Assembly (NCBI RefSeq): GCF_030013205.1
Contig: NZ_CP122648.1
Reading direction: 5' to 3' (one strand)
DNA: 64,000 nucleotides
From: Escherichia coli
Lineage (GTDB): Bacteria; Pseudomonadota; Gammaproteobacteria; Enterobacterales; Enterobacteriaceae
Numbering within the stretch: position 1 is the stretch's first letter; every line of letters begins with the position of its first letter. Shown here one piece after another: positions 60,001 through 63,000 of this stretch. Made by a program: the position numbers.

Positions 60001-63000
60001 AGCGCATAAAAATAACAACATAAAACACTTTACCACCACCCAAAAATTCTCTATTGCATTGTTTTTTAATGAAAAAACATTATTCTCGTAATATTTCACG
60101 ATAAATAACATTAGGATTTTGTTATTTAAACCCGAGTCCTTTGCACTTGCTTACTTTATCGATAAATCCTACTTTTTTAATGCGATCCAATCATTTTAAG
60201 GAGTTTAAAATGGATAAGAAGCAAGTAACGGATTTAAGGTCGGAACTACTCGATTCACGTTTTGGTGCGAAGTCTATTTCCACTATCGCAGAATCAAAAC
60301 GTTTTCCGCTGCACGAAATGCGCGACGATGTCGCATTTCAGATTATCAATGACGAATTATATCTTGATGGCAACGCTCGTCAGAACCTGGCCACTTTCTG
60401 CCAGACCTGGGACGACGAAAATGTCCACAAGTTGATGGATTTATCCATTAACAAAAACTGGATCGACAAAGAAGAATATCCGCAATCTGCAGCCATCGAC
60501 CTGCGTTGCGTAAACATGGTTGCCGATCTGTGGCATGCGCCTGCGCCGAAAAATGGTCAGGCCGTTGGCACCAACACCATTGGTTCTTCCGAGGCCTGCA
60601 TGCTCGGCGGGATGGCGATGAAATGGCGTTGGCGCAAGCGTATGGAAGCTGCAGGCAAACCAACGGATAAACCAAACCTGGTGTGCGGTCCGGTGCAAAT
60701 CTGCTGGCATAAATTCGCCCGCTACTGGGATGTGGAGCTGCGTGAGATCCCTATGCGCCCCGGTCAGTTGTTTATGGACCCGAAACGCATGATTGAAGCC
60801 TGCGACGAAAACACCATCGGCGTGGTGCCGACTTTCGGCGTGACCTACACCGGTAACTATGAGTTCCCGCAACCGCTGCACGATGCGCTGGATAAATTCC
60901 AGGCCGACACCGGTATCGACATCGACATGCACATCGACGCCGCCAGCGGTGGCTTCCTGGCACCGTTCGTCGCCCCGGATATCGTCTGGGACTTCCGCCT
61001 GCCGCGTGTGAAATCGATCAGTGCTTCAGGCCATAAATTCGGTCTGGCTCCGCTGGGCTGCGGCTGGGTTATCTGGCGTGATGAAGAAGCGCTGCCGCAG
61101 GAACTGGTGTTCAACGTTGACTACCTCGGTGGTCAGATTGGTACTTTCGCCATCAACTTCTCCCGCCCGGCGGGTCAGGTAATTGCACAGTACTATGAAT
61201 TCCTGCGCCTCGGTCGTGAAGGCTATACCAAAGTACAGAACGCCTCTTACCAGGTTGCCGCTTACCTGGCGGATGAAATCGCCAAACTGGGGCCGTATGA
61301 GTTCATCTGTACCGGTCGCCCGGACGAAGGCATCCCGGCGGTTTGCTTCAAACTGAAAGATGGTGAAGATCCGGGATACACCCTCTACGACCTCTCTGAA
61401 CGTCTGCGTCTGCGCGGCTGGCAGGTTCCGGCCTTCACTCTCGGCGGTGAAGCCACCGACATCGTGGTGATGCGCATTATGTGTCGTCGCGGCTTCGAAA
61501 TGGACTTTGCTGAACTGTTGCTGGAAGACTACAAAGCCTCCCTGAAATATCTCAGCGACCACCCGAAACTGCAGGGTATTGCCCAGCAGAACAGCTTTAA
61601 ACATACCTGATAACGTTTAACGGTAACGGTGTCCCGAAACGAACCCGTTTCGGGACAATTTCCAAAGTCTGTTCACTGGCATTAGCAACGGAAAATATTG
61701 TTCTGAATACGCTTCAGAACAAAACAGGTGCGGTTCCGACAGGAATACCGTTTTAGGGGGATAATATGGCTACATCAGTACAGACAGGTAAAGCTAAGCA
61801 GCTCACATTACTCGGATTCTTTGCCATAACGGCATCGATGGTAATGGCTGTTTATGAATACCCTACCTTCGCAACATCGGGCTTTTCATTAGTCTTCTTC
61901 CTGCTATTAGGCGGGATTTTATGGTTTATTCCCGTGGGACTTTGTGCTGCGGAAATGGCTACCGTCGACGGCTGGGAAGAAGGTGGTGTCTTCGCCTGGG
62001 TATCAAATACTCTGGGGCCGAGATGGGGATTTGCAGCGATCTCATTTGGCTATCTGCAAATCGCCATTGGTTTTATTCCGATGCTCTATTTCGTGTTAGG
62101 GGCACTCTCCTACATCCTGAAATGGCCAGCGCTGAATGAAGACCCCATTACCAAAACTATTGCAGCACTCATCATTCTTTGGGCGCTGGCATTAACGCAG
62201 TTTGGTGGCACGAAATACACGGCGCGAATTGCTAAAGTTGGCTTCTTCGCCGGTATCCTGTTACCTGCATTTATTTTGATCGCATTAGCGGCTATTTATC
62301 TGCACTCCGGTGCCCCCGTTGCTATCGAAATGGATTCGAAGACCTTCTTCCCTGACTTCTCTAAAGTGGGCACCCTGGTTGTATTTGTTGCCTTCATTTT
62401 GAGTTATATGGGGGTAGAAGCATCTGCAACCCACGTCAATGAAATGAGCAACCCAGGGCGCGACTATCCGTTGGCTATGTTATTGCTGATGGTGGCGGCA
62501 ATCTGCTTAAGCTCTGTTGGCGGTTTGTCTATTGCGATGGTCATTCCGGGTAATGAAATCAACCTCTCCGCAGGGGTAATGCAAACCTTTACCGTTCTGA
62601 TGTCCCATGTGGCACCGGAAATTGAGTGGACGGTTCGCGTGATCTCCGCACTGCTGTTGCTGGGTGTTCTGGCGGAAATCGCTTCCTGGATTGTTGGTCC
62701 TTCTCGCGGGATGTATGTCACAGCGCAGAAAAACCTGCTGCCAGCAGCATTCGCTAAAATGAACAAAAATGGCGTACCGGTAACGCTGGTCATTTCGCAG
62801 CTGGTGATTACTTCTATCGCGTTGATCATCCTCACCAATACCGGTGGCGGTAACAACATGTCCTTCCTGATCGCACTGGCGCTGACGGTGGTGATTTATC
62901 TGTGTGCTTATTTCATGCTGTTTATTGGCTACATTGTGTTGGTTCTTAAACATCCTGACTTAAAACGCACATTTAATATCCCTGGTGGTAAAGGGGTGAA

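What the first reader, a model, noticed from the sequence alone, without database searches (positions are those of the whole stretch)
60111..60130. Canonical GAD box upstream of gadB
The exact 20-mer ttaggattttgttatttaaa is present ~80 bp upstream of the gadB start, marking GadE-dependent control. With safA-ydeO and ydeP, the window spans three arms of the acid-resistance regulon.
Basis: partly seen in the sequence, partly recalled or inferred. Interest (0 to 1): 0.2.

Follow-up and report, generated by a model that had tools for sequence, protein, structure and literature searches.

The report
Known GAD box upstream of gadB
The 20-base sequence is really there and is the well-known "GAD box", the docking site through which the acid-resistance regulators GadE and RcsB switch on the glutamate decarboxylase operon gadBC in E. 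coli; it is textbook biology, not a discovery.

Summary
Confirmed and ordinary. TTAGGATTTTGTTATTTAAA occurs once in the window, at 60111-60130 (+). No other site matches even with 3 mismatches, and no shuffle produced one. It ends 79 nt before the gadB ATG (60210). gadC follows and pqqL precedes, and the window is about 99.97% identical to swine E. coli K_EC180. The box is 20/20 identical to the K-12 gadB and gadA boxes, while the flanks of the two paralogous promoters are at random-level identity. It lies at -72..-53 (centre -62.5) from the inferred +1 (60183) and 16 nt upstream of a weak promoter (TTGCTT-17-TACTTT). This matches the published geometry. Box plus 10 nt is 100% identical in about 99% of 5,426 complete E. 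coli genomes, although the intergenic region is polymorphic. In other Escherichia species the exact box sits 79-80 nt before a gad gene start codon. The K-12 GadE ChIP-exo peak maps to window 60104-60135, and deleting gadE in K-12 lowers gadB about 87-fold. One refinement: published work shows the box is bound by an RcsB/GadE heterodimer, not by GadE alone. ydeP, safA and ydeO are in the window as stated. Already known; low interest.

The parts
60111..60130 (+). GAD box, the 20-bp RcsB/GadE activator site of the gadBC promoter; -72 to -53 relative to the inferred +1
   Evidence: Exact and unique match. 20/20 identical to the K-12 gadB and gadA boxes. Invariant in 11 divergent E. coli haplotypes and in about 5,395 of 5,434 matching records. 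Lies inside the mapped K-12 GadE ChIP-exo peak.
60104..60135 (+). Window equivalent of the K-12 GadE ChIP-exo protected region at gadBC (peak P3, listed at -62.5, activating)
   Evidence: Supplementary Table 1 of PMC4918353, mapped onto the window via K-12 coordinates. Inferred by homology, not measured in this strain.
60147..60152 (+). -35 hexamer TTGCTT of the gadBC promoter, 16 nt downstream of the box
   Evidence: Gapless alignment with the gadA promoter, whose -101..+24 fragment is fixed by the primers given in PMC2887963. 3/6 match to TTGACA by my own comparison; the promoter was not reported by the sigma-70 consensus scan.
60160..60169 (+). Putative RcsB box (CGATAAATCC) immediately upstream of the -10, possibly extending a few bases into the -10; site of RcsB-mediated repression in gadA
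   Evidence: PMC2887963 states that the RcsB box is conserved in gadB apart from a C in place of a G at its left end. The window reads CGATAAATCC where gadA reads GGATAAATCC. The exact borders are my inference.
60170..60175 (+). -10 hexamer TACTTT, with a 17-nt spacer from the -35
   Evidence: Identical in gadA and gadB and invariant in all haplotypes.
60183..60183 (+). Inferred transcription start (+1, C), 27 nt before the A of the ATG
   Evidence: Transferred from gadA geometry. Consistent within 1 nt with the TSS implied by the ChIP-exo table. Not mapped in this strain.
60210..61610 (+). gadB, glutamate decarboxylase B
61766..63301 (+). gadC, glutamate/GABA antiporter, co-transcribed with gadB
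59937..60018 (+). Upstream GadX-binding region: window equivalent of K-12 GadX ChIP-exo peaks P6 and P7. It contains the invariant island 59961-59992 and a 19/20 match to the GadX/GadW motif at 59963-59982
   Evidence: The P7 coordinates come from the supplement text passage.
59855..59879 (+). pqqL terminator-like hairpin (10-bp stem, 5-nt loop, followed by AUUUU), likely insulating the gadBC promoter from pqqL read-through
   Evidence: Fold -18.6 kcal/mol, z = -4.97. Its function is inferred.

Best explanation
The 20-mer at 60111-60130 is the GAD box of the gadBC promoter. It is the cis-acting site where a heterodimer of the LuxR-family regulator GadE and the response regulator RcsB binds. 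It is centred at -62.5 from the transcription start (inferred at 60183). From there the heterodimer activates an intrinsically weak, RpoS-associated promoter (-35 TTGCTT, 17-nt spacer, -10 TACTTT), so that glutamate decarboxylase GadB and the Glu/GABA antiporter GadC are made under acid or stationary-phase conditions. [quoted passage not shown] Shown here: the sequence, its uniqueness, its geometry, and its selective conservation between paralogues, strains and species. Taken from the literature: who binds the box and what that binding does. Inferred: that this holds in this strain, and that activation from -62.5 works by class-I-type RNA polymerase recruitment.
For: The match is exact and unique, with 0 expected by chance. 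The downstream operon is gadB-gadC. Between the paralogous K-12 gadA promoter and the window's gadB promoter the box is 20/20 identical, while the 40 nt upstream are 11/40 identical and the 16 nt between the box and the -35 are almost entirely different. That makes it an island of constraint and not a leftover of the duplication. The geometry is identical to gadA without gaps: box at -72..-53, 16 nt to the -35, ATG at +28. This matches 'centered 63 bp upstream' and '16 bp upstream of the -35 element' in PMC2887963. In 11 E. coli haplotypes spanning 91-100% identity, 58 of 361 intergenic columns vary, none of them within 60101-60130. The 30-mer 60101-60130 is 100% identical in about 5,395 of 5,434 records, whereas only 161 of 5,406 records are >=99% identical over the whole intergenic region. 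In E. albertii, E. whittamii, Escherichia sp. E1V33 and two divergent E. coli-labelled species representatives, the exact box lies 79-80 nt before a gadA- or gadB-type ATG, with diverged flanks. The K-12 GadE ChIP-exo peak P3 at gadBC (listed at -62.5, 'Act', causal on knockout, RpoS involved) maps to window 60104-60135. The expression table in supplementary file 2 lists gadB at 2532.55 versus 29.17 (log2 -6.44), which I take to be wild type versus the gadE deletion; the file's header was not read. DNase I protection of -50 to -76, a Kd of about 10 nM and loss of activation in the M1 box mutant were shown for the RcsB/GadE heterodimer at the identical gadA box (PMC2887963). The closest complete genome carries intact gadE, gadX, gadW and gadA.
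Against: Nothing contradicts it. Several limits apply. Binding and the TSS were measured in K-12, and the detailed footprinting and EMSA work was done on gadA, not on this strain's gadB. gadE and rcsB lie outside the window, so their presence in this exact genome is only inferred from a 99.97%-identical relative; rcsB was not checked at all. The invariance within E. coli is not specific to the 20-mer, because the whole 60133-60209 core promoter and leader is equally invariant. The within-species data therefore show constraint on the promoter block, and it is the gadA/gadB and cross-species comparisons that single out the box. The listed signal-to-noise ratio of the GadE ChIP-exo peak at gadBC is modest (2.78).
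Confidence: 0.95

Rival explanations
1. The box is bound and used by GadE alone, as a homodimer. This is what the original literature and the first reader's wording imply, and RcsB would play no part.
For: Earlier reports, cited in PMC2887963 as its refs 8, 21 and 22, described GadE binding to the GAD box. ChIP-exo with tagged GadE gives a peak over the box.
Against: In PMC2887963, MBP-GadE purified from an rcs-deficient background neither protected nor shifted the box. RcsB and GadE were both needed, they bound in equal amounts, and the earlier results were attributed to RcsB contaminating the GadE preparations. ChIP-exo cannot distinguish a homodimer from a heterodimer.
Confidence: 0.04
2. 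The 20-mer is identical in gadA and gadB only because the two loci are recent duplicates homogenised by gene conversion. It would then be a passive relic with no function of its own.
For: gadA and gadB coding sequences are about 98% identical (GadB versus the GadA of K_EC180, 98.5% at protein level), and parts of the leader and core promoter are also shared.
Against: A conversion tract would homogenise its surroundings. Instead the box is flanked on both sides by sequence at random-level identity (11/40 upstream, almost none of the 16 nt downstream). The same isolated-island pattern recurs in E. albertii, E. whittamii and Escherichia sp. E1V33. Mutating the identical box in gadA abolishes GadE activation (PMC2887963).
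Confidence: 0.01
3. The exact match is a chance occurrence of an AT-rich 20-mer with no biological meaning.
For: The exact 20-mer does occur by chance elsewhere: three hits in unrelated MAGs (one Lentisphaeria, two Bacteroidales) among 298 Gb, none with a gad gene nearby.
Against: There were 0 matches in 100 shuffles of the window, even with 3 mismatches allowed. The site is at the fixed homologous position upstream of gadB in essentially all E. coli genomes and in other Escherichia species.
Confidence: 0

Closest known systems
GAD box of the E. coli K-12 gadBC promoter (Castanie-Cornet & Foster 2001; Ma et al. 2003; RcsB/GadE heterodimer site, Castanie-Cornet et al. 2010, PMC2887963)
   Same: The 20-bp sequence is identical and so is the distance to the -35, -10, +1 and ATG. 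The flanking genes (pqqL upstream, gadB-gadC downstream) are the same. Everything from 60133 to the ATG is identical to K-12.
   Different: There is one base change immediately 3' of the box (window CCC, K-12 CAC, at 60132, which is -51), plus about 15 SNPs further upstream in the spacer and the GadX region. Positions 60131 and 60132 also vary among other E. coli strains and differ in gadA, so no functional consequence is expected.
GAD box of the gadA(X) promoter in the acid fitness island
   Same: The 20-mer, the geometry (-72..-53), the -35 and -10 hexamers and most of the RcsB box are the same. This is the copy on which the binding biochemistry was done.
   Different: The flanks are unrelated. 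The RcsB box starts with G in gadA and C in gadB. In gadA the conserved GTCTG-type GadX/GadW motif lies about 50-60 nt upstream of the box. In gadB it lies about 130-150 nt upstream, and the extra sequence (about 90 nt) between them is highly polymorphic in E. coli.
RcsAB box / RcsB auxiliary-partner sites (RcsB heterodimers with LuxR-type partners such as RcsA, BglJ and GadE)
   Same: According to PMC2887963, the left half of the box (TTAGGA...) resembles an RcsB half-site, and a heterodimer of two FixJ/LuxR-type HTH proteins occupies an asymmetric site of about 20 bp upstream of the -35.
   Different: The partner is GadE. [quoted passage not shown] The assignment of half-sites to each partner is unresolved in the literature.

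Membership tests
GAD box (RcsB/GadE activator site of gad promoters) | Match to the 20-bp sequence TTAGGATTTTGTTATTTAAA, including the conserved G whose mutation (M1) abolishes binding | tested here: met
   20/20 exact at 60111-60130. Identical to the K-12 gadA and gadB boxes and to the sequence quoted in PMC4918353.
GAD box (RcsB/GadE activator site of gad promoters) | Position: centred about 63 bp upstream of the TSS, 16 bp upstream of the -35 element | tested here: met
   Gapless transfer from the primer-anchored gadA promoter gives -72..-53 (centre -62.5), with 16 nt to TTGCTT. The TSS itself is inferred, not mapped in this strain.
GAD box (RcsB/GadE activator site of gad promoters) | Lies upstream of a GadE-regulon operon (gadA or gadBC) | tested here: met
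   gadB at 60210-61610 and gadC at 61766-63301, both above NCBIfam equivalog cut-offs. Synteny with pqqL.
GAD box (RcsB/GadE activator site of gad promoters) | Selective conservation relative to flanking non-coding DNA | tested here: met
   Island of identity between paralogous promoters. Invariant in 11 haplotypes while 58 of 361 intergenic columns vary. About 99% of E. coli records are identical over 60101-60130. Exact in 4-5 other Escherichia lineages with diverged flanks.
GAD box (RcsB/GadE activator site of gad promoters) | Occupied by GadE (with RcsB) in vivo or in vitro | not testable with these tools
   Shown for the identical sequence in K-12: a ChIP-exo peak mapping to window 60104-60135, and footprint and EMSA on gadA (PMC2887963). 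Not measured for this strain.
GAD box (RcsB/GadE activator site of gad promoters) | The cognate regulators gadE and rcsB are present in the same genome | tested here: inconclusive
   Neither gene is in the window. The 99.97%-identical genome K_EC180 has an intact gadE (WP_000576690.1) together with gadX, gadW and gadA. rcsB was not checked.
GAD box (RcsB/GadE activator site of gad promoters) | Downstream operon expression depends on GadE and on the box | not testable with these tools
   In K-12, supplementary file 2 of PMC4918353 lists gadB at log2 -6.44 and gadC at -5.85; I take this file to be the gadE-deletion comparison, but its header was not read. The M1 box mutation abolishes GadE activation of gadA.

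The most novel reading that the evidence does not exclude
The most novel reading not excluded is that this swine-ETEC-like lineage has a regulatory variant of the gadBC promoter. The candidate changes are its rare -51 C (60132, directly abutting the box and inside the region equivalent to the -50..-76 footprint) and its own haplotype of the highly polymorphic 60000-60100 spacer between the GadX sites and the box. Together these might alter RcsB/GadE affinity or H-NS/GadX architecture, and so set a different level of acid resistance than in K-12.
Probability: 0.05. Interest if true: 0.2.

Novelty: already known. Interest (0 to 1): 0.05.

Why it matters
It matters only as correct annotation. The box marks the gadBC operon of this strain as wired into the standard GadE/RcsB acid-resistance circuit, which governs survival of E. 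coli during passage through the stomach. The window also carries the upstream EvgA-dependent tier of that circuit (ydeP, safA-ydeO). No new biology follows from the finding. The comparative data gathered here give a clean phylogenetic footprint of a textbook promoter, with three invariant islands that coincide with the GadX region, the GAD box and the core promoter.

Tried and rejected
(1) Rfam gathering-threshold scan of the whole window: no RNA family matched, so there is no known sRNA or riboswitch at this promoter.

(2) The sigma-70 consensus scan did not report the gadBC promoter. This fits a weak, activator-dependent promoter and is not evidence against it. The same scan missed the pqqL terminator because its T-run is short; folding showed a strong hairpin.

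(3) Tramonti et al. 2006 (PMC1698215), which holds the GadX/GadW footprints on gadBC, is not in the held library. I used the ChIP-exo coordinates from PMC4918353 instead.

(4) I considered whether the frameshifted genes annotated in K_EC180 (marR, autotransporter, usher, ydeM, LysR) are features of the window. They are not: every one corresponds to an indel in K_EC180 relative to the window, and marR is intact in the window.

(5) I considered the exact 20-mer hits in Lentisphaeria and Bacteroidales MAGs as possible distant GAD boxes. I rejected this: no gad gene is present, and the surrounding sequence looks coding (in L022 the 20-mer reads LGFCYLK in a sequence I judged by eye to be Sel1-like repeat), so these are chance matches.

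(6) A search for other GAD boxes in the window at up to 3 mismatches found none.

Full report
OBSERVATION

The 20-mer TTAGGATTTTGTTATTTAAA is present exactly at window 60111-60130 on the + strand. It is the only match in the 64 kb window on either strand, even with up to three mismatches, and 100 dinucleotide-preserving shuffles gave none.

CONTEXT

A 701-nt query around the site is 100% identical to several swine ETEC / O139:H1-type E. coli chromosomes, where the flanking genes are annotated pqqL and gadB. The whole window aligns collinearly, at about 99.97% identity, with strain K_EC180.

- gadB is 60210-61610 and gadC is 61766-63301. Both score far above their NCBIfam equivalog cut-offs.
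- The presence of gadC and pqqL shows that this is the gadBC locus and not gadA.

ANATOMY

PMC2887963 gives the primers of a gadA promoter fragment that spans -101 to +24. Placing them on the K-12 sequence fixes gadA +1, and puts the gadA GAD box at -72..-53 (centre -62.5) and the ATG at +28. From the box to the ATG, the gadA promoter and the window's gadB promoter align without gaps (102 nt each), so the same geometry transfers to the window:

- box: 60111-60130
- 16 nt between the box and the -35: 60131-60146
- -35 TTGCTT: 60147-60152
- 17-nt spacer: 60153-60169
- -10 TACTTT: 60170-60175
- inferred +1 (C): 60183
- 27-nt leader carrying AAGGAG
- ATG: 60210

[quoted passage not shown] By my own comparison each hexamer matches the sigma-70 consensus at only 3 of 6 positions, and the simple consensus scan did not report the promoter. 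That fits an activator-dependent promoter.

The paper also reports an RcsB box just upstream of the -10, conserved in gadB apart from a C in place of a G at its left end. The window reads CGATAAATCC at 60160-69, against GGATAAATCC in gadA.

Upstream of the promoter, a strong hairpin at 59855-59879 (-18.6 kcal/mol, z = -5) directly follows the pqqL stop codon and is probably its terminator.

IS THE BOX SELECTIVELY CONSTRAINED?

Three independent comparisons say yes.

1. Paralogues. Between the K-12 gadA promoter and the window's gadB promoter the box is 20/20 identical. The 40 nt upstream match at only 11/40, and the 16 nt between the box and the -35 are almost completely different. Gene conversion would not leave such an isolated island.

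2. Population. The pqqL-gadB intergenic region is unusually polymorphic in E. coli. Only 161 of 5,406 records are >=99% identical to the window, and identities go down to about 91%.
   - In an alignment of 11 haplotypes chosen to span that range, 58 of 361 intergenic columns vary.
   - Variation peaks in 60000-60100 (38 of 101 columns).
   - No column varies within 60101-60130.
   - Only two columns, 60131 and 60132, vary between the box and the ATG.
   - The three longest invariant runs are 60133-60209 (core promoter and leader), 59961-59992, and 60101-60130 (the box plus 10 nt).
   - Across all 5,426 complete genomes, the 30-mer 60101-60130 is 100% identical in about 5,395 of 5,434 matching records, and the median genome has two places, gadB and gadA.

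3. Species. A scan of one genome per species (298 Gb) found the exact 20-mer in E. albertii, E. whittamii, Escherichia sp. E1V33 and two divergent E. coli-labelled representatives. It is always 79-80 nt upstream of a gadA- or gadB-type ATG, with diverged flanks. Three further hits, in Lentisphaeria and Bacteroidales MAGs, have no gad gene nearby and are chance matches.

A caveat applies to the population comparison. The within-E. coli invariance covers the whole core promoter block, not just the 20-mer. It is the paralogue and cross-species comparisons that single out the box itself.

EXPERIMENTAL SUPPORT FROM THE LITERATURE (K-12)

- PMC4918353 quotes TTAGGAttTTgTTATTTAAa as the characterised GadE site.
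- Its Supplementary Table 1 lists a GadE ChIP-exo peak at gadBC at -62.5. The peak is scored as activating, causal on knockout, and RpoS-involved.
- After converting K-12 genome versions, that peak brackets the K-12 box and corresponds to window 60104-60135. The offset between versions (1975-1976 bp) was derived from the table's own TSS distances for both gadB and gadA.
- GadX peaks P6 and P7 map to window 59937-60018. This region contains the invariant island 59961-59992 and a 19/20 match to the published GadX/GadW motif at 59963-59982.
- Supplementary file 2 lists gadB at 2532.55 versus 29.17 (log2 -6.44) and gadC at log2 -5.85, and file 4 lists gadB at only -0.6. [quoted passage not shown] The file headers were not read.
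- PMC2887963 shows, on the identical gadA box, that GadE alone does not bind. RcsB and GadE together protect -50 to -76 and bind as a heterodimer with an apparent constant of about 10 nM. A G-to-C mutation in the box abolishes both binding and GadE activation. RcsB at high concentration binds the second box next to the -10 and represses.

MECHANISM

The box is the RcsB/GadE activator site of the gadBC promoter. Its centre at -62.5 is the classical position of a class-I-type activator. That recruitment mode is my inference and is not demonstrated in the sources read.

The trans-acting genes are outside the window. The closest complete genome has an intact acid fitness island with gadE, gadX, gadW and gadA, and its gadA promoter carries the same box 79 nt from the ATG. 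rcsB was not checked.

The genes are there. The literature supports an EvgAS > YdeO > GadE cascade (PMC4222967).

Inverted repeats resembling the EvgA box lie upstream of ydeP (44733-44750, 1 mismatch) and upstream of safA (47391-47408, 2 mismatches). I recalled that consensus from memory (Itou et al. 2009) and did not verify it in a held paper. Two matches are not by themselves above chance (0.72 expected), so their location is the only suggestive point.

'Three arms' would be better described as successive tiers of one cascade plus its output operon.

VERDICT

The one refinement is that the box is an RcsB/GadE heterodimer site, not a GadE-only site. It is a fully characterised textbook element, with identical sequence and geometry to K-12, so the finding is already known and of low interest. 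The only strain-specific feature is a C at -51 (60132) abutting the box. That position also varies among other strains and in gadA, so no consequence is expected.

Noticed in passing
window 53261-54028: A 768-bp IS1 element, with terminal inverted repeats at 53261-53283 and 54006-54028, interrupts the yddA ABC-transporter gene between ydeM and yddB. The near-identical record annotates both yddA halves as partial pseudogenes flanking an IS1 transposase.
   Followed up: partly
window 60000-60100: The spacer between the GadX-binding region and the GAD box is highly polymorphic in E. coli: 38 of 101 columns vary among 11 haplotypes, against 9-12% in the neighbouring pqqL 3' end and upstream intergenic DNA. 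Most of this segment has no counterpart in the gadA promoter, which suggests relaxed constraint or old recombining haplotypes.
   Followed up: partly
window 59961-59992 (motif at 59963-59982): A 32-nt island that is invariant across E. coli haplotypes contains a 19/20 match to the published GadX/GadW motif. It falls within the window equivalent of the K-12 GadX ChIP-exo peaks P6 and P7 (59937-60018). The GTCTG core is shared with the gadA promoter.
   Followed up: yes
L005 2990-3020 (E. coli AR_0085, NZ_CP029741.1): A natural deletion fuses truncated ydeN (sulfatase) directly to the gadB promoter. It removes ydeM, yddA, yddB, pqqL and all but the last few bases of the GAD box (junction ...GGTAATTATG|TAAACACGAG...). 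About 22 of 5,426 complete genomes lack the gadB-type box context.
   Followed up: partly
window 44733-44750 and 47391-47408: Inverted repeats resembling the EvgA box (ATCCTACATCTGTAAGAA and CGCCTACAGCTGTAAGAA) lie upstream of ydeP and of safA-ydeO respectively. The consensus was recalled from memory and not verified, and the match count is not above chance on its own.
   Followed up: partly
window 59855-59879: A strong terminator-like hairpin (10-bp stem, -18.6 kcal/mol, z = -5) lies right after the pqqL stop codon. The simple terminator scan missed it because its T-tract is short (AUUUU).
   Followed up: yes
window about 1036-1470 (- strand) and homopolymer sites 23670, 23955, 25860, 29821, 40317, 51045: marR is intact in the window, whereas the closest complete genome (K_EC180) has a 7+1-bp deletion annotated as a marR frameshift. 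The other 'frameshifted' pseudogenes in that record (autotransporter, LysR-type regulator, fimbrial usher, ydeM) correspond to single-base homopolymer indels that are absent from the window, so they are probably assembly errors in the record.
   Followed up: partly
L022 (Lentisphaeria MAG), L023 and L025 (Bacteroidales MAGs): The exact GAD-box 20-mer also occurs in three unrelated metagenome-assembled genomes, in sequence that looks coding. In L022 it reads in frame as LGFCYLK, in what I judged by eye to be a Sel1-like repeat. No gad gene is nearby. This shows that a perfect 20-mer match alone, without context, is not diagnostic at database scale.
   Followed up: yes
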